The notes beneath the pieces are model-generated. The model saw only the letters and a list, made by a program, of their open reading frames with translations, was not told the DNA's origin and made no database searches. The position numbers and the translations under genes are program-made. 64,000 bases of DNA from a virus (taxonomy: Duplodnaviria; Caudoviricetes), in IMG/VR virus record IMGVR_UViG_3300025098_005131; one strand, given 5' to 3'. Below are positions 243 through 17,406 of the stretch, piece after piece (within the stretch, counting starts at the first letter, position 1; the number at the start of each line of letters is the position of its first letter).

Positions 243-341
243 TTGTGTGTTTGTTATGAGATTTATCGAGTGTATATTGAGTATGCGAGAGAGTATAATA
301 TAATATAGGGAATCAATCAATTATTTGAGAGGGGTTATGAT

Positions 342-749
342 ATGGTTAGATCATTGGTAGAAGTAGAGTTTCATGAGATTAATCCGTTTGAAGAGATAGT
401 GTATGTGCATGATCATTCTGAGCATAATATGTTGGGAGAGTTGCATACGAGGGAGAGGGGAGTGGAGGCAGTGACGTATGCGGGGAGCGTAGATCATGTA
501 GAGAAGTTTGATTTGAGGGATGTGACGAAGACTTGGGATTCGCAGGTGAGGGTGGAGTGGGGATTTCATAAGGGAGAAGAGTTTGATGAGGTGTTGCATA
601 TACCTGTTAATATAAGTCAGCAGCCTATATTGGGGAATTTAGTTTTGGTGAACTTATTGAAGGCGCATAATGTTGGGTATGTGACGTTAGGGAAGATTAA
701 TGAGGATAAGTTTATGAAGTTAGAAGATTTCTGTGAGAATTATTTATAG
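342..749 (+). CDS. hypothetical protein, paralog of the C-terminal part of 8115-8735
   Basis: DVTKTWDSQ/DITKVWDSQ and HIPVNI/HIPLNI shared. Follows a promoter and SD. Confidence 0.75.
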   Translation: MVRSLVEVEFHEINPFEEIVYVHDHSEHNMLGELHTRERGVEAVTYAGSVDHVEKFDLRDVTKTWDSQVRVEWGFHKGEEFDEVLHIPVNISQQPILGNLVLVNLLKAHNVGYVTLGKINEDKFMKLEDFCENYL

Positions 750-826
750 GTGTAGGTTAGATTAACTTTGTATTATAATATACTATAAGGTACGTTCAAT
801 CGATCATTCAATTAGAGGGATATATT

Positions 827-1339
827 ATGAAGAGGGTAAAAGATGTTTTTGGTGAGCTGCGAGCTTTAGCGGATGTAGCGCAGGAGATTTATGTGAGTAA
901 TGATCCTTATGATAAGTTTACTTCGGAGTATTCAGCAGCGAACAAGTTAGCTAGAGATTTTCAAGCGGGTATAGCTCCGGAGCTTGTTGTGAGTCTTAAG
1001 AAGGCGCAGGAGTGGATTAGGGAGAAGCATTCTGTAGTTTATTGTGGGAGTAATTGGACTAATTGTTTTGGTATGGAAGAAGCGTTGTTTGAGTATGTGG
1101 GATTTAATCGGTATAGGATGGATAGGGAGCGTGGAGAAGAGGAGTTTAAGGTAGTAGATGTTTCTCCTAAGCAGATGATTGTAGATGGTTATAAGTATTA
1201 TAAGATTCTTGCGGATCGAGAAGCAGATGTTTTGGCTGCAGGTGGTGTTGATACAGAGAGAGTCTTTACTTTAGAAGATGCTATAGCAAGTATGTTATTA
1301 GATTTGAAAGAGTTTGATGATCAGTTAGAGTCTGTATAG
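827..1339 (+). CDS. hypothetical protein
   Basis: ORF fills a promoter-to-promoter cassette. Confidence 0.7.
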   Translation: MKRVKDVFGELRALADVAQEIYVSNDPYDKFTSEYSAANKLARDFQAGIAPELVVSLKKAQEWIREKHSVVYCGSNWTNCFGMEEALFEYVGFNRYRMDRERGEEEFKVVDVSPKQMIVDGYKYYKILADREADVLAAGGVDTERVFTLEDAIASMLLDLKEFDDQLESV

Positions 1340-1413
1340 GTGTAAATGAGATTGATTGTATATTATAATATATTATAAGGTATGTTTGGATTATTATTTT
1401 AGGAGGAAGCAGC

Positions 1414-1779
1414 ATGGATTTATTTAATGAGGCAGCTGAAGCTTTTGATAGCAGCAGAGATTTTGTGAAGTATCATATTGAAGAAGAGAGTTCTATTGAG
1501 TGGATGGGAGTTGCTGCGTGTGTTTCTGGTTTGGAGCCTGTTTCTTTGATTGAGAGAGATGATGGATTGTTAGGGCTTGCCTTTAGATATAAGGAGACAA
1601 TAACAGAAGCTCATTTTTCTACTGATGTTCATGGTAATGAAAGAGTTAATCCTGGTCAGCTTAGGTATTATCCTTCAGATATATTATATGGTGTTTATGA
1701 TCAGCAAGGAAATGTTTTTACAACTAAGAAAAAAGACTTTGAATCTTTATGTTCTAGTTTGAATGCAAGAGGCGTTTAG
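1414..1779 (+). CDS. hypothetical protein
   Basis: SD AGGAGG, cassette ORF. Confidence 0.7.
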   Translation: MDLFNEAAEAFDSSRDFVKYHIEEESSIEWMGVAACVSGLEPVSLIERDDGLLGLAFRYKETITEAHFSTDVHGNERVNPGQLRYYPSDILYGVYDQQGNVFTTKKKDFESLCSSLNARGV

Positions 1780-1839
1780 TAGTATTGTATATGTGTAAAT
1801 AAGACTAGTGTGTAGGTATAATATACCATAGGGGGATAT

Positions 1840-2172
1840 ATGATAAAAAGAAAAAGAAGATCTGATAGAAATCATATAATCTACCGGCTGAAGAATGCTG
1901 AGACAGGTAATGAGTATATTGGTATTACTGTGCAAAAAGATCAAAAAGTTATTGGTAGTGTGAAGTTACGTTTTAAGCAGCATGTATCTCGTTGTAAAAC
2001 ATCTGGTAAGCAGTGGTTATTATATCAGGAAATGAGAGAGTATGGATATGAGAGCTTTAGTTATGAAGTGATAGAAGTTGTTCGTGGTAAGAAGAAAACT
2101 CATCAGAGAGAAATAGAATATATCAATGTTTATAATCCTCAGCTTAACACTAAGAAGAAATCAATTATATAG
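1840..2172 (+). CDS. GIY-YIG family endonuclease (stand-alone catalytic domain)
   Basis: IIY...YIGIT, RFKQH, E..YI...LN motifs. Confidence 0.8.
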   Translation: MIKRKRRSDRNHIIYRLKNAETGNEYIGITVQKDQKVIGSVKLRFKQHVSRCKTSGKQWLLYQEMREYGYESFSYEVIEVVRGKKKTHQREIEYINVYNPQLNTKKKSII

Positions 2173-2184
2173 AAGGGTAGTATC

Positions 2185-2637
2185 ATGAGCAGCACGAACT
2201 TTAAGAAGGCATATACTGAGACGGGTTATCAGCGGACGACTTATATGTCGCATTCAGTCGAGGGTATCTGTAATTTTGATGTGCATGGAGATGATTATTC
2301 TGAGAGTATTGAGGTTTTTCATAAATCTTATGTTGCTTCACGCAAGCAGCTCTTTAAAGATATAGGTTTGGGCAAGTGGAGTGAAGACAGCGACATAGGT
2401 TATCAGAATTATCTACGTGTTTTAGAGAGCGGAGAGTATGAGTTAGGTTATTATGAGAACGAATTTTCTTACAGGGTGCCAGCACAGATTAAGTGTTGTG
2501 ATGTCTGGTTAAGCTTAGGTAAGTTTACTAATACTTGTAGCTTGTGTGATGCAGATTATAATGGAAGCGGGCAGCTCTTAGCCTCTCGTTCCCAATGGGG
2601 TGAGGAGACTGGTGAGCATTGGTCTGAGTGTACGTGA
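2185..2637 (+). CDS. hypothetical protein with Cys cluster
   Basis: C-terminal CC..FTNTCSLC..YNGSGQLLA..SQWGEETGE. Confidence 0.7.
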   Translation: MSSTNFKKAYTETGYQRTTYMSHSVEGICNFDVHGDDYSESIEVFHKSYVASRKQLFKDIGLGKWSEDSDIGYQNYLRVLESGEYELGYYENEFSYRVPAQIKCCDVWLSLGKFTNTCSLCDADYNGSGQLLASRSQWGEETGEHWSECT

Positions 2638-2736
2638 TCTAGAAAGACACTTAATAAGTGTAAATAAGATTAGTGGTATATTATAATATGTTATAAGGCA
2701 ACAACATTCAATCATTCAATTAAAAGGAAATCCAAT

Positions 2737-3363
2737 ATGGGTAAATATACTTCTAATGATAATAGGTCTATGCAGTGTAATCCTAATAACGAAAGATACT
2801 GGTCGTCAAGAGGGTATAATGATTATGATGATGAAGATTCATATTCCAATAATGATCATGACAAATGGGCTAAAGAAAGAGATTTTAAATACAAAGAAGC
2901 AATTGATGAAACGGCTTTTAGCTATTTAGACAAAAAAATTCTATTCAAAGATGCTACTCGGGCTGTATTTGGTTTTGATCCTATTGGTGGAACCGTTGAG
3001 TATTTAAGTGAAAACATTCTTGAAGAAAAGTTAATCTTTAAAAAAGACTTTAATATTAAAAGGTCTGATTTGAGAAGTTTTCTTTTAAACAATACTCCTT
3101 CAAAGAATATTGAAATAAAACAAAATTGGTTTATAAGGGACATAGTTGAAAAAGAAGGTGGTTATTTTCGAAGATACGAGTATTTATTATTAGAAATGTT
3201 TGTGAGTTTAAACTATGTTATATTCTTATTTAACGATTATCGGCAAGGATTGAAGTCTATACCAAGTTACGGCCCTCAGCGTTGGATGTTTAAAGACTTT
3301 AAGAGTGGAGAGCTCGATTTTAAGACAGACAACGTAGTAGAAGATTTGTCTGAGTGTTATTAA
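2737..3363 (+). CDS. hypothetical protein
   Basis: Cassette ORF with SD. Confidence 0.65.
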   Translation: MGKYTSNDNRSMQCNPNNERYWSSRGYNDYDDEDSYSNNDHDKWAKERDFKYKEAIDETAFSYLDKKILFKDATRAVFGFDPIGGTVEYLSENILEEKLIFKKDFNIKRSDLRSFLLNNTPSKNIEIKQNWFIRDIVEKEGGYFRRYEYLLLEMFVSLNYVIFLFNDYRQGLKSIPSYGPQRWMFKDFKSGELDFKTDNVVEDLSECY

Positions 3364-3379
3364 TTTAGAAAGTTTTACT

Positions 3380-3622
3380 ATGAAGTATATGTTATTGTTA
3401 TTAGTTATGTTTTCTATTGCATGCAGCGAAACTAACGCTGCTGAAGGCGATCAGAAATACGAATTAGTTTGTAAGCATCCTATAGGACATATTGTGAGAT
3501 ATCCCGTAAGCTTTGATACGTTCTGGAGTCCTGTCAATACAAGAGGCGGAATCTTTAGATTTAAGACGTTAAATGGACTGATTGTTAGAAGTAGTTTTTG
3601 CCATGGAGAAGCTAAGCATTAA
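3380..3622 (+). CDS. small lipoprotein, paralog of 12933-13211
   Basis: Lipobox IAC. Shared CKHP..G.V.Y...F...NG..V.SS.C. Confidence 0.7.
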   Translation: MKYMLLLLVMFSIACSETNAAEGDQKYELVCKHPIGHIVRYPVSFDTFWSPVNTRGGIFRFKTLNGLIVRSSFCHGEAKH

Positions 3623-3666
3623 AAGACTTGTTTATAGCGATTTGTAATACTTCTGTAATGTTATTA

Positions 3667-3725
3667 ATGTGTAAATAAGATTTATTTTGTATTATAATAT
3701 ACCATAAGGTACATTCAATCATTCA
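3667..3725 (+). repeat. 59-bp promoter repeat, copy A (58/59 identical to 5792-5850)
   Basis: Direct sequence comparison. Confidence 0.9.
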
Positions 3726-3746
3726 ATCACACAAGGCTTTATTATT

Positions 3747-4652
3747 ATGAAGAAATTTTTAATAGCTGCATCTATAATAGCTAATTCTGGCTGTGGCGTT
3801 TTGATGACAGTCGAAAGTCATAATATGATTATCTCAGCTCGAGATAAGATTATAAAACGTAACATGCAAGAAATCAGCGTTAAAAAAAGAACAATAGAGG
3901 AAATAGAAGAAAAGAATGCAAATTATAAATATAAACATGTTGTTCTAAATCAAAGCATTAAAAGAAAAGAAAAGTCTGTTAGTGTCTTGCGTCAGCAAAT
4001 AAAGAGTATCAATGCTAAGTATGCAGATTTAAACAAACAATTTACTAAAGTATTAGCAGAGAAGAGTAAGCTGGAGTCAAACAGAGTTAAGCAAATTGCA
4101 ATTAGTCAGGATAGTAAAGAGTTTCTAGCACTATATTTGCTTGCTTTAGAAGAAGGCTACGATGGTTTCTTTCGACAATATGCAGAAAACTTTTCAGAGT
4201 CTGGACATAGTAGTAAGAGTGTAGAAAAAGAAGTTAGAAAGATTTATGATCAAACTTTAAAACTTGGAAAGAAAACTATATTTGAGAAAAGTGCAGACTT
4301 TAAAATTGAGTACATAAACAAAAAAGTTCAAGGTGAAATAAGTTTTGAAGTAGGTAATCATTTATATGTGCATGAGTTCATAGTAAAAAGAGATTTAAGC
4401 AAACTTAAAAATAGCGGCATAAATTATGTTGTAGGCTTTAAAGTAAAAAATGACAATTGTTTTAAGATAATAGAAAAGCCTTTATACGACAAGTACGGGG
4501 ATCCGGTCATTGAGTATAAGGATGTTAATGATTATGAGCAGGTAGCAGTAGAAAAATATAAAAAAGTAAAGAAGAAATATAAGTGTTTAAAGGTAAACGC
4601 AAGTTACTTAGTCTACACATACAATGGAGAAGCTATAAAATATGAAACTTAA
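3747..4652 (+). CDS. coiled-coil putative lipoprotein
   Basis: Signal with SGC and a long heptad region. Confidence 0.6.
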   Translation: MKKFLIAASIIANSGCGVLMTVESHNMIISARDKIIKRNMQEISVKKRTIEEIEEKNANYKYKHVVLNQSIKRKEKSVSVLRQQIKSINAKYADLNKQFTKVLAEKSKLESNRVKQIAISQDSKEFLALYLLALEEGYDGFFRQYAENFSESGHSSKSVEKEVRKIYDQTLKLGKKTIFEKSADFKIEYINKKVQGEISFEVGNHLYVHEFIVKRDLSKLKNSGINYVVGFKVKNDNCFKIIEKPLYDKYGDPVIEYKDVNDYEQVAVEKYKKVKKKYKCLKVNASYLVYTYNGEAIKYET

Positions 4653-5790
4653 TAAAAAGCATTTGTTGATTTTGTGCGTGCCGTTATTTTGCTGCAGTGA
4701 AAGTAAAAACATAACGACTTCTGACAAAGAACAAATTAGGCAAGAAGATCGTAATGAAAAAGGATTTGATCTGGAAACAGGAGAAGAAAAACTATTTTGT
4801 GCTAAAGAAGACTTAATCTGTAATGAAGACTTGGACTGCACAACTTCAACAGGCGTTTCAGCTTCTTGCGTGCAAGGTGTATGTGTTACTGATGGTCCGG
4901 GCTGTATGTATGATAGTGATTGTTTTGATAGCAATCCGTGTGTTGTGCATACTTGTGAAGAAGGAATGTGTAAACCTTATAGTAGTTCAAGTAAAAGTAG
5001 CTGTGAGGATCCTGAGACTGGATTGAGTGGTATTTGCGCAGGCACTACTTGTGTTGTATTAAAAGAGACGTTAGAAGAAAACATAAAAAACGTTTGTGAT
5101 ACTGAAGCTGAAGGTTTTAATGAAGACGAATGTGTTTTTTCAAGTAATAGTTGTATGAAGTTTTCTATGAAAGAAAATACTTTTAAGCAGCTGCCAAACG
5201 GAACTGAGTGTGAGAACGATCTTGGCGCTCCAGGCCAATGCCAATCAGGTTATTGTAGATATGATGATGACATAGAAATAAAAACTGAAGTTAAGTGTGG
5301 TTACAAGAATTATTATGACAACTGGGGTAGAGTAATCTATAGAGAAAAAAAGTGCAGAAACAAAAAGAAAATCCAGTTTAAGATTAGTAAAGAAAAGTTA
5401 AGCAAATCAGCAAAGAAACTTAAGCGATCGATAATGAAAAACTTAAGATACGATGTGCATGTTGGAATAGTTCACAGTCATAGTGGTGGTTATAATATAG
5501 TTATAACAAACACAAACAAAAAAGATAAAGTTAGAGGTATGATTGATCCATCTTTGATTGCATGGGAAATTGCATCGTTTACAAAGAAAACAAATTGGAG
5601 AAGCGCAAACTTACAAGTATGGACAAGACCTAGACACGATGGCTGGCATATGTCTACTAGCGGTTCAAGAAGAGCAGTTAGAAAAGGTCAACAAGGTGCG
5701 GGATGGTTAGGCATGTATGGTGTAGTTAACGTTCGAACGTTTAGAGTGTGGTTGGAAAAGAATTTTAGATATATTGAAAAGGGTTATTGA
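4642..5790 (+). CDS. Cys-rich repeat putative lipoprotein
   Basis: LFCC lipobox. C..D.DC.DSNPC....C..G.C repeats. Confidence 0.65.
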   Translation: MKLNKKHLLILCVPLFCCSESKNITTSDKEQIRQEDRNEKGFDLETGEEKLFCAKEDLICNEDLDCTTSTGVSASCVQGVCVTDGPGCMYDSDCFDSNPCVVHTCEEGMCKPYSSSSKSSCEDPETGLSGICAGTTCVVLKETLEENIKNVCDTEAEGFNEDECVFSSNSCMKFSMKENTFKQLPNGTECENDLGAPGQCQSGYCRYDDDIEIKTEVKCGYKNYYDNWGRVIYREKKCRNKKKIQFKISKEKLSKSAKKLKRSIMKNLRYDVHVGIVHSHSGGYNIVITNTNKKDKVRGMIDPSLIAWEIASFTKKTNWRSANLQVWTRPRHDGWHMSTSGSRRAVRKGQQGAGWLGMYGVVNVRTFRVWLEKNFRYIEKGY

Positions 5791-5791
5791 T

Positions 5792-5850
5792 ATGTGTAAA
5801 TAAGATTTATTTTGTATTATAATATACCATAAGGTACGTTCAATCATTCA
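5792..5850 (+). repeat. 59-bp promoter repeat, copy B
   Basis: Direct sequence comparison with 3667-3725. Confidence 0.9.
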
Positions 5851-5869
5851 TTTAAAAAGGATATAATAT

Positions 5870-6340
5870 ATGAATCCAGCAATCCAGAAACTAAACGAGC
5901 TTATTTGTGAAGAATATAATGTCGAGATAAAGCTTGATCAATCTCTTATACACGACTCTTACGATGAAGGTGAGTTAGAAGAGTATTATTTTTATCATAA
6001 TGTTGCTGAATACTGTTTTTACTCTCAACCTGACACTTTATCTGAAAAGTTAAGAAATAAGTTAAACTTCATCTCAAATGGAGAATTGCAGACTGAAATT
6101 GTTTCTGATTTAGATAGTGATGATGAGCTTAGTTGTTTTGAAGACAGACTTTGTATGATGCAGCAGACAAGAGAAGATAGGACACAACCATCTGAAGATG
6201 AAGTTGAGTTATGGAAAAAGGGAGAGTTTAAGCTGTTTAATCTTTATACAGAGTTTAAGATTTACTTTAATGGTCAACAGATTTCAGATCTTGATCTAAT
6301 CAGAGATCTGGTAAAAGAAAATACGTATCTAACAGCATGA
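5870..6340 (+). CDS. hypothetical acidic protein
   Basis: Cassette ORF with SD. Confidence 0.65.
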   Translation: MNPAIQKLNELICEEYNVEIKLDQSLIHDSYDEGELEEYYFYHNVAEYCFYSQPDTLSEKLRNKLNFISNGELQTEIVSDLDSDDELSCFEDRLCMMQQTREDRTQPSEDEVELWKKGEFKLFNLYTEFKIYFNGQQISDLDLIRDLVKENTYLTA

Positions 6341-6350
6341 TGAGGTTGAG

Positions 6351-6857
6351 TTGATGAAGAAGTTTATTGTATTATTGGTTACAGCATTTATGATGTCTGC
6401 TGCTGCAGTTCAAGCTAAGCCTAAAGAGTTATCTGGCCCTAGGCTAGGATTGACGTATATTACCCCTGGAGAAATAACAAATGAGATTGATGGAAGTTTC
6501 ATAACACAGTATGGCTGGCAATTTGAAACAAGATTTGTTTCTGGAGATGAGTTAGCTGGTTTAGTAGAGTGGGTGCTTTTAGCAGGTGGATTAGAGAAGG
6601 GATACGTATTACCATCAGTAACTTCTATAATTGGTTTAAGAGCTAAGAATGGTTTTGAAATAGGAGCTGGACCTAATTTATCTTTAGTGGGCGTTGGTTT
6701 AGCTTTTGCTATTGGATATAACTTTAGTATAGGAAGTTTAAATCTACCTTTAAACTTTTCTTGGGTGCCTTCAACACGAATTGAAGATGAGGATGATTCG
6801 TCTAAAACTCTTGATGCCGGGCATAGAGTTTCTTTAACTTTTGGGTTTAATATGTAG
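6351..6857 (+). CDS. putative outer-membrane beta-barrel protein
   Basis: Signal peptide (AVQA), amphipathic Gly/aromatic strands, C-terminal LTFGFNM. Confidence 0.6.
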   Translation: MMKKFIVLLVTAFMMSAAAVQAKPKELSGPRLGLTYITPGEITNEIDGSFITQYGWQFETRFVSGDELAGLVEWVLLAGGLEKGYVLPSVTSIIGLRAKNGFEIGAGPNLSLVGVGLAFAIGYNFSIGSLNLPLNFSWVPSTRIEDEDDSSKTLDAGHRVSLTFGFNM

Positions 6858-6948
6858 AGTAATCTTAGCGTGTAATTAGGTTCAACTTTATATTATAATA
6901 TATCATAAGGTAAAAACAAACAATCAATCAATCAAAAGGAAAACAATA

Positions 6949-7185
6949 ATGAGTAACAAATATAGATTTGAAGAAATAAAAGAGCAAATCAAAGAACTAC
7001 TTGATGAGGCATTTGATCTTGTTCCTGATCATGCAAGAGCTCGAGCTGAGTCTTATTGGTATGCACACATATCTACAGCATTAGACGAAGATCATGGTTA
7101 TCTTGGTGGTAGTATGTGTAGCATGCAAGATACCTTGGAAGAGTTTGATGAAGAGGATGAAGAAGATGAAGAGGATGAAGACTAA
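6949..7185 (+). CDS. hypothetical protein with acidic tail
   Basis: Cassette ORF. Confidence 0.65.
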   Translation: MSNKYRFEEIKEQIKELLDEAFDLVPDHARARAESYWYAHISTALDEDHGYLGGSMCSMQDTLEEFDEEDEEDEEDED

Positions 7186-7346: not shown

Positions 7347-7347
7347 T

Positions 7348-7566: not shown

Positions 7567-7750
7567 GAATCCTTTTAAGACTGGTGACATTATTAATTTT
7601 AGAAGTCTTTACTATGGTTTAATAGTTAAAGCGAAATACCATAATAGCTACATCTTTCTTGAGGTTTTAAATACAAGTAATCATGTTAGACAGCTTAATT
7701 TGACGCTTTTAGAAAATCATAATTACGCTTATAAAGTTATTAACGTGTAA
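7559..7750 (+). CDS. small SH3/KOW-like hypothetical protein
   Basis: FKTGDIINF..YGLIVK pattern. Stop is the TAA of a GTGTAA promoter hexamer. Confidence 0.55.
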   Translation: MIKNPFKTGDIINFRSLYYGLIVKAKYHNSYIFLEVLNTSNHVRQLNLTLLENHNYAYKVINV

Positions 7751-7818
7751 GTTAGATTAATTGTTGGTTATAATATATTATAAGGCAACAACAAACATTC
7801 ATTCAATAAGGACATAAT

Positions 7819-8028: not shown

Positions 8029-8114
8029 TACTCTTATCGTGTAACTTAGATTAATTTCATATTATAATATACCATAAGGTACATTCAATCATTCAATCAA
8101 AAAGGACATTTAAT

Positions 8115-8735: not shown

Positions 8736-8738
8736 GAT

Positions 8739-8939: not shown

Positions 8940-8965
8940 AGTAATTAGGTTTGAAAGGATAAGAT

Positions 8966-9259: not shown

Positions 9260-9267
9260 GTAAATGT

Positions 9268-9570: not shown

Positions 9571-9784
9571 CAAGATGAGTTTTTTTGGAGTTGAAGTTGA
9601 GAGAGACTGTATTACTAAGCTGCCTTCTTTTTTCAGGTATGATAACAGGAGATGGGATTACGCAATTAAGACTAATTCTGGAACCGCTAAAGATTTTGCA
9701 ATGAAACTGCAGTCTACAGGAATTTTCAGAACAGCACAAATTCCAGAATCTGGTGTCTGGATCATTAAAGAGATAAGACACTAA
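9560..9784 (+). CDS. hypothetical protein
   Basis: Ends just before a promoter. Confidence 0.55.
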   Translation: MKSDKMSFFGVEVERDCITKLPSFFRYDNRRWDYAIKTNSGTAKDFAMKLQSTGIFRTAQIPESGVWIIKEIRH

Positions 9785-9835
9785 TCGTGTAATTTAGATT
9801 CATTTTATATTATAATATACCATAAGGCAACAACA

Positions 9836-9931
9836 ATGATTTATATCACATCAGGAATCATTATATCGTTAATCGCTTACTCTTTCTATATTGTGTACAA
9901 TATATGCACAGGAAAAATCTACAGGAGATAA
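9836..9931 (+). CDS. 31-aa single-TM peptide
   Basis: MIYITSGIIISLIAYSFYIVYNICTGKIYRR, directly after the promoter at 9787. Confidence 0.4.
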   Translation: MIYITSGIIISLIAYSFYIVYNICTGKIYRR

Positions 9932-9933
9932 AA

Positions 9934-10311
9934 ATGGAATCGATCACAGTCAAAGTAAATGTTAGTGACAATCCTTGGCTTGCAAACTATAAAGAGTTTT
10001 CTTTTTCCAAGGAAAAAATTGTGACCATTGCAAAAGATCTTGTAGTTGAATGCACAGGTAGAGACTATAAGGCTTCACACGATTACGGTAAACATGTTTC
10101 TTTTGTTATGGAAAAATCTTGGGATAACACATGTGGTTCGATCATACCTCTTTATAAAGCTTTACAAGTTGTTTTAAGAGAGTTGAAAAAACCTGATGAG
10201 GGTTGGAGTGGTGGTGCAACTGCTGCAATAAGATGTATTGAAAGAAGAATGGCTTACGCTACACCAGGCTTTATCGAAGCAAAAAGATATAATGAAATAT
10301 ACGGGAGTTAA
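9934..10311 (+). CDS. hypothetical protein
   Basis: SD AGGAGA supports a start at 9934. Confidence 0.65.
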   Translation: MESITVKVNVSDNPWLANYKEFSFSKEKIVTIAKDLVVECTGRDYKASHDYGKHVSFVMEKSWDNTCGSIIPLYKALQVVLRELKKPDEGWSGGATAAIRCIERRMAYATPGFIEAKRYNEIYGS

Positions 10312-10334
10312 TATGAATAGTCGAGGTTTCTATA

Positions 10335-10544
10335 ATGGCTGATGATTTTGCTTTACTTTTTACAAGTCTTTGGTTTTTTTTATTGACAATCATGTTATCC
10401 ATTGCGAAAAACTTGTTTTGTTTTGAATGCATAGGCACTTTAAATACATCATTAATAGCTTTACTCTGCATCCTTTGCAGCCATGAAATTGCTGTTACAA
10501 TATCTTCGAGATTTTTCAAGGTGAATAAAAACCAAAAGAATTAA
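10335..10544 (+). CDS. small membrane protein
   Basis: Two hydrophobic stretches. Confidence 0.45.
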   Translation: MADDFALLFTSLWFFLLTIMLSIAKNLFCFECIGTLNTSLIALLCILCSHEIAVTISSRFFKVNKNQKN

Positions 10545-10626
10545 TTCTTCGTGTAAATTAGACCAAATACCAATTATAATATACCATAAGGTAACAACAA
10601 CAAATTTTTTAAAAAGGACATTAAAT

Positions 10627-11322
10627 ATGAACAACAACTTAATTGAAATTACAACTCCACTTCAATCTAAAAACGGAACTCGTATGTTTGAGTGCACTCG
10701 TACCGGAGCACATTACGGAAGTTACGCATCAGGTTACGTAAGAAGAAAAACTAACGGAAGTCACAATACTAAACGTTTTTACCAGTTAAACAAAAAGAAA
10801 AATTTCCCTGTGTTTAATGCTGCACTCAATATGACATTCAAAAATACGCAGCGTGTCATGATTGATACAGAAGAAGAAAGGCTTGCGCTTATTAATCAGC
10901 GAAGTTTAAAGTTTAAGTCTAATACACAACAAGTTAATACACAACAAGTTAATACACAACAAGTTAATACACAACAAGAAGAAGTTATGCTTAAAACTAA
11001 TACTACTACAAACACAAATCTTGATAAAAGTATATCTCATAGAAGCAGATCTTATGCTAATGCTAGAAAGAACTTGAAGTGGCCATCATACATTGTCCAG
11101 GTTGTTCACTCAAGTATGATGCTTAACGAAACACCTGGCATTATCGCAAGCCGTTTAGACCAGATGCTAACAGATATCCCAGGACATAGGTTTAATTTCA
11201 ACTCTCAGGAAGCAAAGATTGAAGCTATTCATAATGTCATGCAACACTTACAGTCTCGAGCTCGCCAATCTGTTAATCGTATGATTGATCACATTGATAA
11301 TGTAGATAGAACTAGAGGATAG
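10627..11322 (+). CDS. hypothetical protein with NTQQV repeats, N-terminus similar to 16948-17334
   Basis: KNGT..F...G..Y....G...R shared. Confidence 0.65.
   Translation: MNNNLIEITTPLQSKNGTRMFECTRTGAHYGSYASGYVRRKTNGSHNTKRFYQLNKKKNFPVFNAALNMTFKNTQRVMIDTEEERLALINQRSLKFKSNTQQVNTQQVNTQQVNTQQEEVMLKTNTTTNTNLDKSISHRSRSYANARKNLKWPSYIVQVVHSSMMLNETPGIIASRLDQMLTDIPGHRFNFNSQEAKIEAIHNVMQHLQSRARQSVNRMIDHIDNVDRTRG
10921..10978 (+). repeat. 15-bp tandem repeat AATACACAACAAGTT x about 4 (in frame)
   Basis: Direct. Confidence 0.95.
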
Positions 11323-11343
11323 AACTAGAGGATAGAACTAGAG
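11305..11343 (+). repeat. 13-bp tandem repeat GATAGAACTAGAG x3 spanning the stop codon
   Basis: Direct. Confidence 0.95.
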
Positions 11344-11355
11344 AGATTCTCTTGC

Positions 11356-11421
11356 GTGCAACTTAGATTAAATTCATATTATAATATACCATAAGGCAAC
11401 AACAATTAATCATTCAAAAGG
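11356..11421 (+). repeat. 66-bp promoter repeat, copy C (63/66 identical to 11693-11758)
   Basis: Direct comparison. The pair brackets one gene. Confidence 0.9.
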
Positions 11422-11427
11422 TCTTAA

Positions 11428-11703
11428 ATGAAAAACAATTATTCAGCAAGCTTGGCATCTGATGTGATAAGAGGTAGCAGAAATTTAGGTAGAAATAGAG
11501 AACTAAATAATCTATCTTCAGATGACTTAATTAACTTAATTAAAGACTACGTTAACAAGTACGGTCAGCCTGAAAATTATAATGGCATGTTGGTTTGGTC
11601 AAATGTTTCAGGTAACACTTATAGTTTAAGTGCCTATAAAAACAACAAGCCTTTCAATCCAGAAGAATTAAATCTAAATAATGCTCTCTTAAGTGTAACT
11701 TAG
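11428..11703 (+). CDS. hypothetical protein
   Basis: Sole gene between 66-bp repeats C and D. Confidence 0.65.
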   Translation: MKNNYSASLASDVIRGSRNLGRNRELNNLSSDDLINLIKDYVNKYGQPENYNGMLVWSNVSGNTYSLSAYKNNKPFNPEELNLNNALLSVT

Positions 11704-11758
11704 ATCAACTTCATATTATAATATACCATAAGGCAACAACAATTAATCATTCAAAAGG
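11693..11758 (+). repeat. 66-bp promoter repeat, copy D
   Basis: Direct comparison with 11356-11421. Confidence 0.9.
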
Positions 11759-11766
11759 ACTTTATT

Positions 11767-12534
11767 ATGAATACCAACATTCAAAACATCAATACTAATA
11801 ATAACAACCAGCCTGTAGGGGTTTCCATGAACACAACAAATTCTTTGATTCAAGCACTTGTTACTCACTTTAATGATAATCCTCAAGGATTTACTTCTTA
11901 TCGAAAAGAAATTGAAAGCCTTCTCAAGGAAAATATCAAGCCTATTGCTTCTCGCAGTTCTAAAGTTGGTGATAACTGGCGTGCTGATCTTAAATCCAAG
12001 TTCAGCGGCCGAGGTGCTAAATGGGTCTTTGTTTCGCTTGAAAGCATCGAACAAACACTCGTTCAGCTTGAAACTAACGGCATTGATTGCGCTGACTATC
12101 GTAAAAACGTTGTGAAGCTTGGTAAGGCTTGGGTTCGATTTAATGGTGCTCGGGTTGACAGTGGTATTAAATGTGCTGCATTTGAAGTTCGTACTGAAGG
12201 CTCAACCATTGATCACCCCAAGCAGGTTCATATGATTAATGTTGATGACTTGGATGATTTAATTGAGGTTATGCCTGGTACGCCAAAAGGTTTAAAGCTT
12301 GAAGAAGACGCAGCTCCAATGCCTAGAATTTCTAAGTCTAAAGTAGAGAACAAACCAAAATCAAAACCAGCTGTTAGCGAGCTTGAAGCTTTAAGTGAAG
12401 AAATTAATCTAGAGCTTCGAGAGCCAGAACTAAATGACACTCCAGAAAGTAACGATCCTGCAGACTGGGAAGCATTCTTAGCTTCAGAAGGTCTTATTGA
12501 TGATGACTTTGATATGATTGATGACGAGATCTAA
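11767..12534 (+). CDS. hypothetical protein, SGRG..W family paralog 1, acidic tail
   Basis: FSGRGAKW..KAWVRF..FEVRTEGSTIDHP..TPKGLKL. Confidence 0.75.
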   Translation: MNTNIQNINTNNNNQPVGVSMNTTNSLIQALVTHFNDNPQGFTSYRKEIESLLKENIKPIASRSSKVGDNWRADLKSKFSGRGAKWVFVSLESIEQTLVQLETNGIDCADYRKNVVKLGKAWVRFNGARVDSGIKCAAFEVRTEGSTIDHPKQVHMINVDDLDDLIEVMPGTPKGLKLEEDAAPMPRISKSKVENKPKSKPAVSELEALSEEINLELREPELNDTPESNDPADWEAFLASEGLIDDDFDMIDDEI

Positions 12535-12548
12535 TACATAATACATGT

Positions 12549-12577
12549 CTTGCGTGTCCTACCCCTTGTCCCGTCAA
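12549..12577. other. bipartite motif TTGC(G/C)-N17-CGTCAA, copy 1
   Basis: Same spacing at 32336-32364 and 33901-33929. Confidence 0.45.
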
Positions 12578-12607
12578 GCCCGTTCTCTTTTTGTGTTCGG
12601 CAAATAT

Positions 12608-12680
12608 CCTCTTGTAGCTCAGTGGTAAGAGCAGTATTCTTAAAAAGTAAAGGTCGGCAGTTCAATCCTGCCCAAGAGGT
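12608..12680 (+). tRNA. non-canonical tRNA, anticodon UAA, short variable loop
   Basis: Perfect acceptor stem CCTCTTG/CAAGAGG, D arm, GGCAG-TTCAATC-CTGCC T arm. Weak anticodon stem, U73, no CCA. Confidence 0.7.
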
Positions 12681-12730
12681 CTCTGTTTTACGACAGGATT
12701 AATCTTATTCAATACAAAGGAAATTATATT

Positions 12731-12925
12731 ATGAATCATTCTACATACACTACATTCAATAATCAAGCAAACGTTCTAGTTGTATACTCAGCTGTGTCTC
12801 ATGTTATTAATGACAAAAGCGAAGGCTGTTGGATTTGGTTCCATAGTGGTAAGTGTGTTCACGTCGCTGAATCGATGAGCGATGTAACAGCTGATGTTGG
12901 TGACTACCTTGACACTTTAAAATAG
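12731..12925 (+). CDS. hypothetical protein
   Basis: SD and ATG. Confidence 0.55.
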   Translation: MNHSTYTTFNNQANVLVVYSAVSHVINDKSEGCWIWFHSGKCVHVAESMSDVTADVGDYLDTLK

Positions 12926-12932
12926 GAGACAC

Positions 12933-13211
12933 ATGAAAACACTCATGCTTTCAGCTTTGCTTGTAATATGCGGTTGCAATTTTAAAGAGCCACGTCGCGA
13001 CGGCAAGACTAAAATCCCAGTTTTTAAAGTTATATGTAAACACCCACATAAAGGTTACGTATCTTATTTTGTCAAAGATGTTTACAAAAATATAAGACCA
13101 TATAAACATAGAAACTCTATCTGGTTTTTTAGAGATATCAATGGTGTTTTAGTTGAATCTAGTCTAGGGTGTTATACAGACTCCACCATGAAAGGCTTTA
13201 TGAAAAAATGA
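12933..13211 (+). CDS. small lipoprotein, paralog of 3380-3622
   Basis: ICGC lipobox and shared motif. Confidence 0.7.
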   Translation: MKTLMLSALLVICGCNFKEPRRDGKTKIPVFKVICKHPHKGYVSYFVKDVYKNIRPYKHRNSIWFFRDINGVLVESSLGCYTDSTMKGFMKK

Positions 13212-13510
13212 AATTACTAACAGTAAAAAGCTCTTTTGTGTTAAACAGTAAAGATTTAAATTGTATTGTGCCAGTAGGTGCTAAACTCAATTATATTAAG
13301 GAAACATATCACTTTTATCATGCTTATTATGAGTCACATAATTACAAGGCAGCTGCTGTGTATAAAGAAAAAGAGTTAGAATTAAGAGTTCATAGAGTTC
13401 ATGGGTCAAAAAGTTTTAAGATCTTAGACTGCAAGCCTACACATGGTGATAAAAGCAAAGCATACTGGCAGGACTTATTTGAAGAAGAGTGCCCGTTGGA
13501 GATTAGGTAG
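13208..13510 (+). CDS. hypothetical protein
   Basis: ATGA overlap start at 13208. Confidence 0.55.
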   Translation: MKLLTVKSSFVLNSKDLNCIVPVGAKLNYIKETYHFYHAYYESHNYKAAAVYKEKELELRVHRVHGSKSFKILDCKPTHGDKSKAYWQDLFEEECPLEIR

Positions 13511-13514
13511 TTTT

Positions 13515-13682
13515 ATGATAATCAATGAAGATTTACAAAGCATTGTAACTATTATACTTTTAATCTGTGCAGTATTTATGACTTTTTATCTTGTCGTCAT
13601 TTTTCCAACTTATTTCGCCGGATTCTTTTTTGGTCTATTGTTCTACTCTTTTATAGATGCGTTTATAAAGAAAGATCTGTAA
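13515..13682 (+). CDS. small membrane protein
   Basis: Two TM segments. Confidence 0.5.
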   Translation: MIINEDLQSIVTIILLICAVFMTFYLVVIFPTYFAGFFFGLLFYSFIDAFIKKDL

Positions 13683-13687
13683 GGTAA

Positions 13688-13996
13688 ATGAAATTGGAAG
13701 CCTTCAAAGTAAAAAGTTTAATAACACTAAGAAAAGATATGGGTAGCTTTCCTTTAGCAAACCAGTTACCTGACTTTACAAAGAAGTTTGATGTTATTCC
13801 TTACTATCTAGGACCACATCATGATGGCTTTGCGCTAGAAGATGACACTTTACTTATCTTAGAAACTTTTACGCAGAAGAGAAAGTCTATGCCTTACGCT
13901 TATAAATGTTTATTTAAAGACAGAATAGTTTATCTTGTTCATATGCAAGCAGAAAGAATAGATCCTAATATATGTTTTGTCACGTGTAATAAATAA
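13688..13996 (+). CDS. hypothetical protein
   Basis: 3' end overlaps a promoter hexamer. Confidence 0.55.
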   Translation: MKLEAFKVKSLITLRKDMGSFPLANQLPDFTKKFDVIPYYLGPHHDGFALEDDTLLILETFTQKRKSMPYAYKCLFKDRIVYLVHMQAERIDPNICFVTCNK

Positions 13997-14041
13997 AATT
14001 ATTGTTTATAATATAAAGTCAGGAAAAAAAGGAGAATAAAT

Positions 14042-14257
14042 TTGATAAATTATTATGCATATTCAGGTGATAAAACTCTTGAAGAAAGTAGAAAGTCTGA
14101 TATTAATTCAACTAACTTTAAATCAGGAAGCAGCGATTTTGCAATAAAACTTTGCAATAAAAAATTCGGAAAGAATAAATATAAATTGTTTTCATTCAAA
14201 AACTTTAACGACTTAACAACTTTTGATCAAATTATTCAGGAGGCAAAATGTTCATAA
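14042..14257 (+). CDS. hypothetical protein, similar to 8739-8939
   Basis: SD AGGAGA, TTG start. Confidence 0.55.
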   Translation: MINYYAYSGDKTLEESRKSDINSTNFKSGSSDFAIKLCNKKFGKNKYKLFSFKNFNDLTTFDQIIQEAKCS

Positions 14258-14502
14258 CAGACTTTTACGAGATCGCTGACGGCGCCGAACAAGAAATCGG
14301 AGTCAACATGTATTTAGACATAATTTTCAGTGATGAATTAAACAAGTATTTTAATTATAAGTACAATTATGACGATGATGTTATTACCTTAAACTTCGAA
14401 GTTGAAAAAGGCTCAGCGTCTATTGATATAGTTAATGCTCAATCACCAAATTATAGTTATCGTTTTAACAATATTTTTGAAAAACATATCGAGAGTGAGT
14501 GA
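14248..14502 (+). CDS. hypothetical protein
   Basis: SD AGGAGG. Confidence 0.6.
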   Translation: MFITDFYEIADGAEQEIGVNMYLDIIFSDELNKYFNYKYNYDDDVITLNFEVEKGSASIDIVNAQSPNYSYRFNNIFEKHIESE

Positions 14503-14753
14503 TAGATGTTATGTCAATATCTAAAAAACTTTGCAAAATAAGAATTGTTACTGATTGTACAGAATCTGGTAGAGAAGATATAAACGAAGAATCTCTAATT
14601 AAAGTTATAGACTTGAAAACTATCTATTATGATTTGAAAAGTAGTTCAAAAACAATCTTGGAAGATAAAAGATTAACAGCAGTCAACGAAAACAGACTTT
14701 TGTCAATTCTTATCTTAGACCAAAATATTGACTGGAGCAAAATAATTTCTTGA
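14499..14753 (+). CDS. hypothetical protein
   Basis: GTGA overlap. Confidence 0.55.
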   Translation: MIDVMSISKKLCKIRIVTDCTESGREDINEESLIKVIDLKTIYYDLKSSSKTILEDKRLTAVNENRLLSILILDQNIDWSKIIS

Positions 14754-15007
14754 AAAGGAATGATAGTTTTTTAGATATTGACATTGTCAAATACGCATTT
14801 TTCATTTGGTCGTTAAGCTTTTGTACTTGGCTAATTGAAATTAACTTTAAAATAGAAAGACTTTTAGCAGGAGCCTTTGTGTTCTTAGCTTTAATTTTAT
14901 TTCTAATTGTTAGGAGACTTTTGTGAGTTGTTATTACGACTACTTTGTTGGAGCATGTATTTGTGAAGAAAAAATTGAACAGATACCTTTAAGCCAACTT
15001 TTTACTT

Positions 15008-15322
15008 TTGCAATGGAGTTGCTTAATGTATAAATTAACATTACTATTAGCAAGTGCTTTTTTAATATTAGACGGATGCACAGATGCTGAATTTAGTAGA
15101 TATACAACGTTCGGACAGCGTGCTGAAATTATTTGTCGTAGTGGCGGCAAGATTACTTTTCATGGGATATCTACAGGCAAGGTATCTAATGAAAAAAATA
15201 GTGATGGTTACTTTGCCAAGTGGGAAGTAATTTCAGCACCTGATTACAGGCATGCAAAGCCAGGAGACGTTACTCCTGCAACGCTTTCAAGCGACTGTGA
15301 TATAATTTATATAGAAGACTAA
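15008..15322 (+). CDS. phage lipoprotein-like protein
   Basis: GCTDA lipobox. C.SGG...F.G.STGKV....SDGY motif. Confidence 0.65.
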   Translation: MQWSCLMYKLTLLLASAFLILDGCTDAEFSRYTTFGQRAEIICRSGGKITFHGISTGKVSNEKNSDGYFAKWEVISAPDYRHAKPGDVTPATLSSDCDIIYIED

Positions 15323-15345
15323 AAACAAAAACAAGGACTTATTTA

Positions 15346-15720
15346 GTGACATTTAGAAATATGTTTGCCCTACTTCTCTCTCTACAATATGGCTGTGAAG
15401 CTGATTCTAAATCTACAAGTCATATAGAATTTTTAAAAGATTCCGGTTACAAACGTTTATCATGTAATCTGGCATATAATAACACAGTTAATTCATATGA
15501 CTTTACTGCTGAAGTTGTTCCTGTTTCTAATAACTTAGAAATGCTCTTAGCAAGATGCAGTAAAAATGGATGTGATTTTAAAGTAATAAAAGATAATTCT
15601 ACGCCAAACAAGATTTTGTGTCAAAGGTATTATAACAACGACAGCTTTGATTCTGAGTTCGACAAAGATCAATTAGTCTTAACCTTTAATACAAAATATT
15701 TCTTAGATATAAAAGAATAA
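15346..15720 (+). CDS. putative lipoprotein
   Basis: YGC after a hydrophobic signal. Confidence 0.55.
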   Translation: MTFRNMFALLLSLQYGCEADSKSTSHIEFLKDSGYKRLSCNLAYNNTVNSYDFTAEVVPVSNNLEMLLARCSKNGCDFKVIKDNSTPNKILCQRYYNNDSFDSEFDKDQLVLTFNTKYFLDIKE

Positions 15721-15794
15721 TATAAAGTGTAAATTATCAAATAATAAATTATAATATATTATAATAAATAAAAAACAAATTTAGGAGCAAATAC

Positions 15795-15986
15795 TTGAAC
15801 ATTCCTTATATAAGCTTAATGATGCTTTATCTTATTCCAATTAGCGCAATGTTAATATTAAATTCTATTCAAGACATCAAAGACATATTTAGAAGAATAA
15901 AGACAGGTGATTATTTTGTTGTAGTAGAAAAATGTGCTGCACCGATCTTATCTTTGGGAATTGCAGCTTCTTTTTATCTTTACTGA
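15795..15986 (+). CDS. small membrane protein
   Basis: Two TM segments, follows a promoter. Confidence 0.5.
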   Translation: MNIPYISLMMLYLIPISAMLILNSIQDIKDIFRRIKTGDYFVVVEKCAAPILSLGIAASFYLY

Positions 15987-15995
15987 AAGGGTTTT

Positions 15996-16295
15996 ATGAA
16001 AGACTTAATTGAATACAAGTTTGGAGATATTTCTATTAAAAAGGTTTCAAACGGTTGGATGCTCGTTGAAGGCTCTTCAAGAGATGAAGATGAAATAATG
16101 TTTTCTGTTTATGAGTCTGAAGAAAGACCTTTTTTAGATCATACTAATGCTACTTTAGGTGATGCCGAATCACTAGTAAGGCTTTTAGAAGATGCATTTG
16201 AATCTTATCTTCAATGCAAGCAGTTTGGTGGCATTTCAATCAGTTTTCATGAAAAAGGTTATGAAGATGATAAAGAAAAATTAATTGAAACATAA
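15996..16295 (+). CDS. hypothetical protein
   Basis: SD and ATG. Confidence 0.6.
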   Translation: MKDLIEYKFGDISIKKVSNGWMLVEGSSRDEDEIMFSVYESEERPFLDHTNATLGDAESLVRLLEDAFESYLQCKQFGGISISFHEKGYEDDKEKLIET

Positions 16296-16369
16296 TGTGT
16301 AAATTAGATTAAATACAAATATAATAATAGTATAAGGCAACAAAAATTAATTCTTTAAAGGTATAAAAA

Positions 16370-16531
16370 ATGGCAAGGTATATTTCAAAGTTCGAGTTTG
16401 CTTGTGAATTATTTGGCTATGAAAAAGCAATTAACATGGACAAGCCCATTATAGAATCATATTATAATGACTGGAAATCTTCTACTTATTCTTTAAAAAT
16501 TTACAAAAACTTACTTAAAACTAGAGGTTAA
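16370..16531 (+). CDS. 53-aa hypothetical protein (below track cutoff)
   Basis: MARYISKFEFACELFG..., first gene after the promoter at 16297. Confidence 0.55.
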   Translation: MARYISKFEFACELFGYEKAINMDKPIIESYYNDWKSSTYSLKIYKNLLKTRG

Positions 16532-16532
16532 T

Positions 16533-17400: not shown

Positions 17401-17406
17401 AATTTA

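What the first reader, a model, noticed from the sequence alone, without database searches (positions are those of the whole stretch)
270..16531. Promoter-delimited gene-cassette array that may be rearranged by recombination between promoter repeats
Seen: 1-7 small genes lie between successive promoter repeats. ORF stops abut or fall inside the next repeat (749/750, 1339/1340, 7750, 11703, 13996, and later 24957, 26133). Near-identical 59-bp (3667/5792) and 66-bp (11356/11693) copies exist, and the latter pair brackets exactly one gene. Paralogs recur in different cassettes. Inference: an integron-like but recombinase-free accessory array in which homologous recombination adds, deletes or duplicates self-expressing cassettes of host-takeover genes.
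Basis: partly seen in the sequence, partly recalled or inferred. Interest (0 to 1): 0.7.

Follow-up and report, generated by a model that had tools for sequence, protein, structure and literature searches.

The report
Promoter repeats shuffle phage gene cassettes
An uncultured marine giant phage carries a long row of small unknown genes, each group headed by the same ~75-base promoter-plus-leader, and related phages gain, lose and reorder these groups largely at those repeats, as already described for "PeSL" cassettes of T4-type phages.

Summary
Seventeen copies of one promoter-plus-leader repeat (GTGTAAnTTAGATT-N11-TATAATATACCATAAGG, a CA-rich leader, then SD and ATG) head groups of 1-7 small plus-strand ORFs between 270 and 16531. 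Upstream stop codons abut or lie inside the repeat. The core motif occurs 21 times in the window against 0.16 in shuffles.

The window is a marine jumbo phage with no cultured close relative. The array runs on at least 5 kb left of the window.

Strains at 99.9% identity are syntenic here. Relatives at 75-95% identity are heavily shuffled.

Five clean indels of a single cassette have both ends in promoter copies. One is the predicted 11428-11703 cassette, but I saw it missing only in divergent relatives. Another separates two 99.9%-identical strains. 37% of homology-block ends fall in repeats that cover 11% of the DNA. Many other breaks sit at promoterless gene junctions, so the repeats are hot spots rather than the only break sites.

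The mechanism is known: PeSL-mediated modular shuffling in T4-type phages (PMC2839356, PMC4122927). This array differs in having no stem-loop or terminator, a non-canonical -35 and a new lineage. There is no integrase and no attC, so "integron-like" is only an analogy. A host-takeover role and early timing are untested.

The scan has noted similar arrays on other DNA (e1-5319812, e1-4508208).

The parts
270..341 (+). Variant promoter+leader copy (GTGTAT-N18-TATAAT) ahead of ORF 342-749
   Evidence: Contigs in three other metagenomes skip 234-311.
750..826 (+). Promoter+leader repeat. The stop of ORF 342-749 abuts it. Heads ORF 827-1339.
1340..1413 (+). Promoter+leader repeat. The stop of 827-1339 abuts it. 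Heads ORF 1414-1779.
1793..1839 (+). Promoter repeat with a very short leader. Heads the GIY-YIG ORF 1840-2172 and ORF 2185-2637.
   Evidence: The block 1792-2686 is conserved from promoter to promoter in L001 and L008.
2658..2736 (+). Promoter+leader repeat. Heads ORFs 2737-3363 and 3380-3622.
3669..3746 (+). Promoter+leader repeat, 94% identical to the 5794 copy. Heads ORFs 3747-4652 and 4642-5790.
5794..5869 (+). Promoter+leader repeat. Heads ORFs 5870-6340 and 6351-6857.
6870..6948 (+). Promoter+leader repeat. Heads four ORFs between 6949 and 7750.
   Evidence: Metagenome contigs join 6310 to 6870 exactly at its 5' edge.
7745..7818 (+). Promoter+leader repeat. Its GTGTAA holds the stop of ORF 7559-7750. 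Heads ORF 7819-8028.
8039..8114 (+). Promoter+leader repeat. Heads five ORFs between 8115 and 9784.
9787..9903 (+). Promoter repeat with a longer leader. Heads ORFs 9904-10311 and 10335-10544.
10551..10626 (+). Promoter+leader repeat. Heads ORF 10627-11322.
   Evidence: Metagenome contigs join 9258 to 10551 at its 5' edge.
11356..11427 (+). Left copy of the 95%-identical promoter pair
11428..11703 (+). Single-gene cassette (91 aa) bracketed by the promoter pair. Absent, with one promoter left in its place, in relatives L005 and L013.
   Evidence: Present in all near-identical strains.
11693..11766 (+). Right copy of the promoter pair. Its TTAGAT holds the stop of 11428-11703. Heads 11767-12534, tRNA-Leu and five or six more ORFs up to 13996.
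13984..14041 (+). Degenerate promoter copy (GTGTAA-N17-TATAAT only). Heads six ORFs between 14042 and 15720.
15727..15794 (+). Degenerate promoter copy. Heads ORFs 15795-15986 and 15996-16295.
16297..16369 (+). Promoter+leader repeat. Heads ORFs 16370-16531, 16533-16820 and 16933-17334, then the tRNA cluster.
1840..2172 (+). GIY-YIG (homing-endonuclease-like) ORF, the only array ORF with a family match
   Evidence: Contigs in runs X6 and X8 join a promoter leader directly to ORF 2185, with no sequence of this ORF between.

Best explanation
This is the hyperplastic, probably early-expressed, accessory-gene region of an uncultured marine jumbo phage. Each transcription unit starts with the same ~75-nt module. 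The module has a sigma70-type promoter with a perfect extended -10 (TATAATATAcCATAAGG) and a non-canonical -35 (GTGTAA, 17-18 nt spacer). It then has an unstructured CA-rich leader, a Shine-Dalgarno site and the start codon. The units hold 1-7 small ORFan genes that are under purifying selection. There are no terminators, so transcription probably reads through and adds up along the array. The modules are direct repeats that share up to 46-49 identical bases. General homologous recombination, within one genome or between co-infecting relatives, can therefore cross over inside them. That deletes, inserts or swaps whole promoter-plus-gene cassettes and always leaves a working promoter at the joint. 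This is the PeSL 'modular shuffling' mechanism of T4-type phages, here without the stem-loop part. Shown: the repeats, the cassette layout, shuffled order in relatives, five promoter-to-promoter cassette indels with the switch of flank inside the shared core, and enrichment of block ends in the repeats. Inferred: promoter activity and timing, which RNA polymerase holoenzyme reads GTGTAA, the recombination machinery, and what the genes do.
For: The repeat is real and far beyond chance. dN/dS is 0.05-0.34 for 20 ORFs (14 in the array, 6 in 17.6-28.7 kb), so these are real genes. Gene order is shuffled in eight IMG/VR relatives at 75-95% nt identity. There are five precise single-cassette indels bounded by two promoter copies. 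In each, the single promoter of the other genome carries the left copy's upstream flank and the right copy's downstream flank. The five are: W 11356/11693 against L005 and L013; L005 7515/8401 against L013 535; L003 5598/5928 and L003 3798/4149 against L007; and L019 493/746 against L018 776, in two strains 99.9% identical to the window. Independent samples carry several of these arrangements: L003 and L006; L004 and L007; L005 and L013 for the g11428-less form; L023, L024 and L025 for the window's form. That argues against misassembly. Of 257 homology-block ends, 95 lie within -25..+90 of a promoter start (11% of the length). That is 1.07 ends per promoter junction against 0.34 per promoterless junction. 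Offsets peak at the 5' edge and at the end of the leader, as crossover inside the repeat predicts. Adjacent promoters are more alike than distant ones (permutation p = 0.009). Contigs from other marine metagenomes join array parts at promoter edges: 6310 to 6870, 9258 to 10551, 3357 to 8039, 8036 to 11693 and 278 to 1364. The published PeSL model describes the same logic.
Against: Many rearrangements do not use two promoters. A promoterless 210-aa gene is inserted between genes in L007. Several indels have one end at a stop codon and only GTGT-type microhomology at the promoter's 5' edge. Against divergent relatives, gene adjacency is lost about as often at promoterless junctions (51 of 64) as at promoter junctions (34 of 37), p = 0.16. 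The counts are not independent events, because lineages are shared. Selection for intact transcription units would also place surviving breakpoints at promoters. Near-identical strains are syntenic across the window part, so events are not frequent on short time scales. Promoter function and early timing are unmeasured. The phage encodes its own sigma factor, whose gene also has a GTGTAA-type promoter.
Confidence: 0.75

Rival explanations
1. The repeats are only strong promoters kept alike by selection for expression. Rearrangements arise by illegitimate or microhomology recombination anywhere, and selection keeps only those that preserve whole transcription units. Breakpoints then merely appear to sit at promoters.
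For: Several junctions show only GTGT-scale microhomology at the promoter's 5' edge, or lie at stop codons. The adjacency test is not significant. dS varies gene by gene, not only cassette by cassette.
Against: In five indels the junction lies inside the repeated promoter-leader module. In the two cleanest it falls inside a 30-43 nt stretch identical in both copies, and the product is an exact single repeat. That is the signature of homologous rather than illegitimate exchange. Block ends are 3 times more frequent per promoter junction than per promoterless junction, although both kinds preserve ORFs.
Confidence: 0.15
2. The apparent shuffling is an artefact of metagenome assembly, with chimeric joins across the repeats between co-occurring strains.
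For: Logan contigs of the source-like run break exactly at the repeats: 3696, 5821, 6954, 8089 and 9836. Many relatives are short contigs.
Against: The same arrangements recur at 99.6-100% identity in assemblies of different samples: L002, L005 and L009; L003, L006 and L010; L004 and L007; and the window with L018, L019, L020, L021 and L023-L025. Exact shared runs are at most 49 nt, which is shorter than the reads and than the final k of one assembly (its contigs are named k141).
Confidence: 0.04
3. A dedicated site-specific system (integron-like integrase, or homing endonucleases) moves the cassettes, and the repeats are its recognition sites.
For: A GIY-YIG nuclease ORF lies in the array and seems to be present or absent in natural variants. 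Its block 1792-2686 is the most widely conserved one.
Against: No integrase or recombinase domain was found in any array ORF of 200 aa or more. The repeats have no conserved hairpin or attC-like structure. There is only one nuclease gene for about 17 repeats. Crossover points vary within the repeat.
Confidence: 0.05

Closest known systems
PeSL (promoter-early stem-loop) regulatory cassettes of T4-type phages: RB49/phi1, T4/PST, KVP40/nt-1 (Arbiol et al. 2010, PMC2839356; Comeau et al. 2014, PMC4122927)
   Same: Both are repeated intergenic modules of about 75-100 nt running from the upstream stop codon through a sigma70-like promoter to SD and ATG. Both are concentrated in hyperplastic regions full of ORFans. 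Relatives differ by cassettes flanked by two modules against a single module. Some indels have a module on one side only, and homing endonucleases are also present.
   Different: There is no stem-loop or terminator component here. The -35 is GTGTAA rather than the E. coli consensus. The leader is conserved too. The density is very high: 17 copies in 16 kb and at least 25 in the 21.6 kb I examined, and an earlier unchecked note of this scan counts 37 over about 37 kb. The phage is an uncultured marine jumbo phage with no close cultured relative, and I did not show it to be T4-like. Mini-circles were not tested.
Host-takeover and pre-early gene modules with multiple strong early promoters (Bacillus phage SPO1 host-takeover module; phage T5 first-step-transfer region). 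This comparison rests on my own knowledge and was not tested here.
   Same: Both are dense runs of very small, mostly unknown genes on one strand, behind several strong host-type promoters, near one end of a large lytic phage genome.
   Different: Those modules are not known for near-identical promoter-leader repeats that delimit exchangeable cassettes. The location of this array relative to a genome end is unknown.
Integrons
   Same: Both are arrays of small exchangeable gene cassettes separated by repeated recombination sites.
   Different: There is no IntI integrase, no folded attC sites and no single Pc promoter. Each cassette here carries its own promoter, and exchange is by general homologous recombination.

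Membership tests
PeSL cassettes of T4-type phages | Repeated sigma70-like early promoter in intergenic position, ending in SD and a start codon | tested here: met
   All copies have TATAAT with GTGTAA 17-18 nt upstream, then AAAGGA and ATG. The -35 is non-canonical and promoter activity was not measured.
PeSL cassettes of T4-type phages | Stable stem-loop (terminator or attenuator) as part of the module | tested here: not met
   Folding of -60..+45 and -10..+80 around 17 copies gave no conserved hairpin, and z-scores scattered around 0. The terminator scan found 5 sites in 19 kb, none at a repeat, against 7.2 expected.
PeSL cassettes of T4-type phages | Concentrated in hyperplastic regions, upstream of ORFans | tested here: met
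   In the 26 array ORFs scanned (all of 200 aa or more, plus 20 smaller ones) the only family match was one GIY-YIG. Gene order is shuffled in relatives.
PeSL cassettes of T4-type phages | Indels between close relatives are flanked by two modules in one genome and replaced by one (chimeric) module in the other | tested here: met
   Five cases.
PeSL cassettes of T4-type phages | Excised mini-circles with one chimeric module | not testable with these tools
   Only Logan contigs could be laid, not raw reads. One low-depth 'goes back' joint (8103 to 7327) is not promoter to promoter.
PeSL cassettes of T4-type phages | Host phage is a T4-type myovirus | tested here: inconclusive
   No T4 core gene lies in the window. 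Ligase and 5'-3' exonuclease are at most 34% identical to any cultured phage. Most large proteins have no PHROG hit.
Integron | IntI tyrosine recombinase next to the array | tested here: not met
   No recombinase domain in the array ORFs or in the large ORFs of the window that were scanned.
Integron | attC sites (imperfect inverted repeats that fold) between promoterless cassettes, all expressed from one Pc | tested here: not met
   The repeats are direct, unstructured promoters, one per cassette.

The most novel reading that the evidence does not exclude
The module is kept more uniform than promoter function requires: runs of 46-49 identical bases, a conserved leader, and stop codons built into the -35. 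On this reading it is selected as a portable recombination site. The array would then act as a recombinase-free cassette exchange system, passing self-expressing genes (perhaps as mini-circles) among co-infecting marine jumbo phages. A related open point is that the GTGTAA -35 might be read not by the host sigma but by the phage's own split sigma factor plus its small HTH partner, which would make this a phage-private promoter and recombination code.
Probability: 0.15. Interest if true: 0.7.

Novelty: new variant of a known kind. Interest (0 to 1): 0.45.

Why it matters
Promoter-mediated modular shuffling has so far been documented in a few pairs of cultured T4-type phages. This array shows it also shapes the accessory genome of an abundant, uncultured marine jumbo-phage lineage. 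It works with a promoter-leader module that has no stem-loop. That gives a concrete rule for how ORFan genes turn over in ocean phages. It also explains why such regions fragment in metagenome assemblies. The array further supplies a ready set of about 40 small, selected, probably early genes as candidates for host-interaction functions.

Tried and rejected
A near-identity DNA search of 1-17000 against GenBank phages found nothing. No whole genome is held for this window.

Pfam and PHROG scans of 26 array ORFs gave only one GIY-YIG hit. ESM Atlas look-ups of 4642-5790 and 11767-12534 gave no usable lead. The 'host-takeover' reading therefore could not be tested.

A gene-adjacency test against divergent relatives was not significant. 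Adjacency was conserved at 3 of 37 promoter junctions and 13 of 64 promoterless junctions, p = 0.16. I do not use it as support.

I looked for the predicted 11428-11703 deletion among near-identical strains. All of them keep the cassette.

Laid contigs cannot show circles or rare junctions. Joints with short sides (30-45 nt) at 90% likeness are weak. The tRNA-tRNA joint 12627 to 18533 is probably cross-matching of tRNAs. Parts without cover in runs X6-X8 prove nothing.

A full-text search for a GTGTAA phage promoter found no relevant paper.

Taxonomic placement by ligase and 5'-3' exonuclease was uninformative. The sigma-70 scan with a TTGACA -35 does not pick up these promoters and is not enriched over shuffles.
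Full report
**What the window is.** The window is AT-rich (about 31% G+C) and densely packed with small ORFs on the plus strand. It has a tRNA cluster and phage-type enzymes: ATP-dependent ligase, a PolX-like protein, UvdE, IMPDH/GMP reductase, PurA-like and PurB-like proteins, and a MoxR ATPase with a VWA protein. It has no near match among GenBank phages. Conserved enzymes are at most 34% identical to any cultured phage. Public runs that hold the DNA are marine or seawater metagenomes. Exact proteins of the window occur on contigs in the 0.2-1 Mb class, next to a phage sigma factor, GroEL and a 5'-3' exonuclease. I conclude it is an uncultured marine jumbo phage. I could not show that it is T4-like.

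**The observation.** A direct-repeat search and a pattern scan confirm the repeat. Its consensus is GTGTAAnTTAGATT-N11-TATAATATAcCATAAGG. A CA-rich leader of two types follows (GGTACATTCAATCATTCAATCA or GGCAACAACAATTAATCATTCAA), then AAAGGA and the ATG.
- Strong copies start at 750, 1340, 1793, 2658, 3669, 5794, 6870, 7745, 8039, 9787, 10551, 11356, 11693 and 16297.
- Variant or degenerate copies start at 270, 13984 and 15727.
- Weaker GTGTAA-N17-TATAAT sites continue to 29432. They also precede minus-strand replication and metabolism genes at 37871-41895 and 47726.
- GTGTAA-N17/18-TATAAT occurs 21 times in the window, against 0.16 on average in shuffles.
- Cassettes hold 1-7 ORFs.
GTGTAA supplies a TAA and TTAGAT supplies a TAG.
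- The near-identical pairs are real. 3669/5794 is 94% identical with 46 exact bases. 11356/11693 is 95% identical with 49 exact bases and brackets only ORF 11428-11703.
- Paralogs across cassettes exist but are few and distant.
- The ORFs are genuine genes. dN/dS is 0.05-0.34 for 20 ORFs, 14 in the array and 6 in 17.6-28.7 kb, compared with relatives.
- None of the 26 array ORFs scanned, except a GIY-YIG nuclease at 1840-2172, matches Pfam or PHROGs.

**No stem-loop, no terminator.** Folding 17 copies gave no conserved hairpin. The module tends to be less structured than shuffles. A terminator scan found nothing at the repeats. The repeated unit is therefore promoter plus leader, and transcription probably reads through from cassette to cassette.

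**The array is larger than the finding.** Contigs L018-L021 and L023-L025 come from JGI, ENA and Logan assemblies of other samples. They are 99.9-100% identical to the window and syntenic with it. L018 and L019 extend 5.1 kb left of window position 1 and carry 8 more promoter copies there.

**Relatives are shuffled.** A pattern scan of IMG/VR with the promoter found ten contigs. A protein search with the 728-aa neighbour found four more. At 75-95% nt identity the cassettes occur in different orders and combinations, with many genes unique to one lineage. By contrast, 12830-22000 is collinear in the closest of these contigs, L011.

**Breakpoints.** Five clean events have both ends in promoter copies.
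1. The window has P11356-g11428-P11693. L005 and L013 have one promoter between the homologues of 10627-11322 and 11767-12534. The two alignments overlap by 92 nt, which is the repeat.
2. L005 has p7515, a 268-aa gene and p8401. L013 has one promoter there.
3. L003 has p5598, an 88-aa gene and p5928. L007 has one promoter.
4. L003 has p3798, a 91-aa gene and p4149. L007 has one promoter.
5. L019 has p493, a 54-aa gene and p746. L018 has one promoter. Both are the window's own phage at 99.9% identity.

In each case the single promoter carries the left copy's upstream flank and the right copy's downstream flank. In cases 2 and 4 the switch falls inside a stretch of 30-43 identical bases. In case 3 the promoter itself is a finer mosaic. 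Several alleles are seen in assemblies of two or more samples: L003 and L006, L004 and L007, L005 and L013, and the window with L023-L025. That argues against assembly chimeras.

**Enrichment.** In an all-against-all comparison of ten loci, 95 of 257 homology-block ends lie within -25..+90 of a promoter start, an interval class that covers 11% of the sequence. A further 54 lie at promoterless gene junctions. Per junction this is 1.07 against 0.34. Offsets pile up at the 5' edge and at +50..+80, as expected if crossovers occur inside the repeat. These counts share ancestry, so the p-values are inflated. Adjacent promoters are slightly more alike than non-adjacent ones (75% against 71%, permutation p = 0.009).

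**Population data.** In the source-like run, Logan contigs break at the repeats. In three other marine runs, contigs join array parts with one end exactly at a promoter's 5' edge (6310 to 6870, 9258 to 10551, 3357 to 8039, 8036 to 11693), in a leader (811 or 7806 to 2185), or promoter to promoter (278 to 1364). The sides are short (30-45 nt) and likeness was set to 90%, so this is weak, supporting evidence only. Contigs cannot show circles.

**Limits.** Promoters are hot spots, not the only break sites.
- L007 has a promoterless 210-aa gene inserted between two genes.
- L007 also has an 814-nt block of about two genes, a g3380-like ORF that overlaps the end of the g2185 homologue and a g6351 homologue. 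It is inserted between that gene's 3' end and a promoter, with only GTGT microhomology.
- L008 differs from L001 by a 770-nt block whose left end is not a promoter.
- Against divergent relatives, adjacency is lost at 34 of 37 promoter junctions and at 51 of 64 promoterless ones (p = 0.16).
- dS changes from gene to gene within cassettes.
- All near-identical strains keep 11428-11703.

The PeSL papers report the same mixture of two-sided, one-sided and non-PeSL events.

**How it most likely works.** The modules are strong promoters with translation leaders for accessory genes. Because they are long direct repeats, general homologous recombination between copies deletes, duplicates, inserts or swaps whole units and regenerates a working promoter. 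This can happen within one genome or between co-infecting relatives.

Which holoenzyme reads GTGTAA is open. The phage encodes a sigma70-family protein just beyond the window. However, its own gene is preceded by a GTGTAA-N17-TATAAT site, so either the host enzyme reads these sites or the factor is delivered or auto-amplified. Early timing and a host-takeover function are inferences only.

**Comparison with what is known.** The closest described system is the PeSL cassette of T4-type phages (PMC2839356, PMC4122927). Architecture, location and indel patterns are the same. The differences are the missing stem-loop, the non-canonical -35, the conserved leader, the density and the lineage. A defining PeSL feature, the stem-loop, was tested and not met. 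I therefore file this as a new variant of a known kind and not as a PeSL member. The integron analogy fails on integrase, attC and Pc. The scan has noted similar things on other DNA: e1-5319812 (GTG(T/C)AA-N17 cassettes in another genome) and e1-4508208 (a PeSL-like duplicated promoter module).

**Verdict.** Interest is moderate.

Noticed in passing
window 1-2000 (and L018 4750-7000): The sense strand is extremely depleted in C. C is 2% and G 43% in 1-250, C is 6-12% up to 2 kb, and C rises to 17-20% by 11-12 kb. In the 99.9%-identical contig L018 the 4.7 kb just upstream is the opposite (C 20-27%), with an abrupt switch about 380 nt left of the window start, although all genes are on the same strand. 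ORFs 42-242 and 342-749 are coded almost without C. Unexplained.
   Followed up: partly
window 1840-2172 and joints 811->2185 / 7806->2185: The GIY-YIG nuclease ORF sits between promoter 1793 and ORF 2185. Contigs in two other marine metagenomes join a promoter leader plus AAGGAAAATTAA directly to the ATG of ORF 2185. This looks like a free-standing homing endonuclease gene that is present or absent. The block 1792-2686 is the most widely conserved part of the array.
   Followed up: partly
just beyond window end (L015 8498-9554): The phage-encoded sigma70-family gene (250 aa, regions 1.2-3) with a small overlapping downstream ORF is itself preceded by GTGTAA-N17-TATAAT. This bears on which polymerase reads the array promoters.
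   Followed up: partly
window 42450-46695 (-): A purine-nucleotide gene set: an IMPDH/GMP-reductase family protein (45634-46695), an adenylosuccinate synthetase-like protein (43780-44976) and a Lyase_1 (PurB-like) protein (42450-43613).
   Followed up: no
window 10920-10978 and 11300-11345: A 15-nt tandem repeat lies inside ORF 10627-11322, which is 231 aa here and 221 aa in some near-identical strains. A 13-nt tandem repeat (GGATAGAACTAGA) lies just before promoter 11356, and one metagenome contig lacks one unit.
   Followed up: no
window 17400-21600 vs L013: In the relative L013, the segment homologous to 17556-18408 lies on the other side of the minus-strand module (728-aa protein plus PolX-like, 18797-21520), while the tRNAs stay in place. 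This is a local transposition or inversion outside the promoter array.
   Followed up: no
L018 150-220 and 505-547 (upstream of the window): The two leftmost promoter copies are preceded by a shared GC-rich element (TGACTC...GG..ACC...TGGCGTCGTC.CTC) that could form a short hairpin. The copies inside the window have no such element.
   Followed up: no
window 12608-12681: A lone tRNA-Leu(UAA) lies inside a cassette, 5 kb from the tRNA cluster, which already holds another tRNA-Leu(UAA) at 18019-18100.
   Followed up: no
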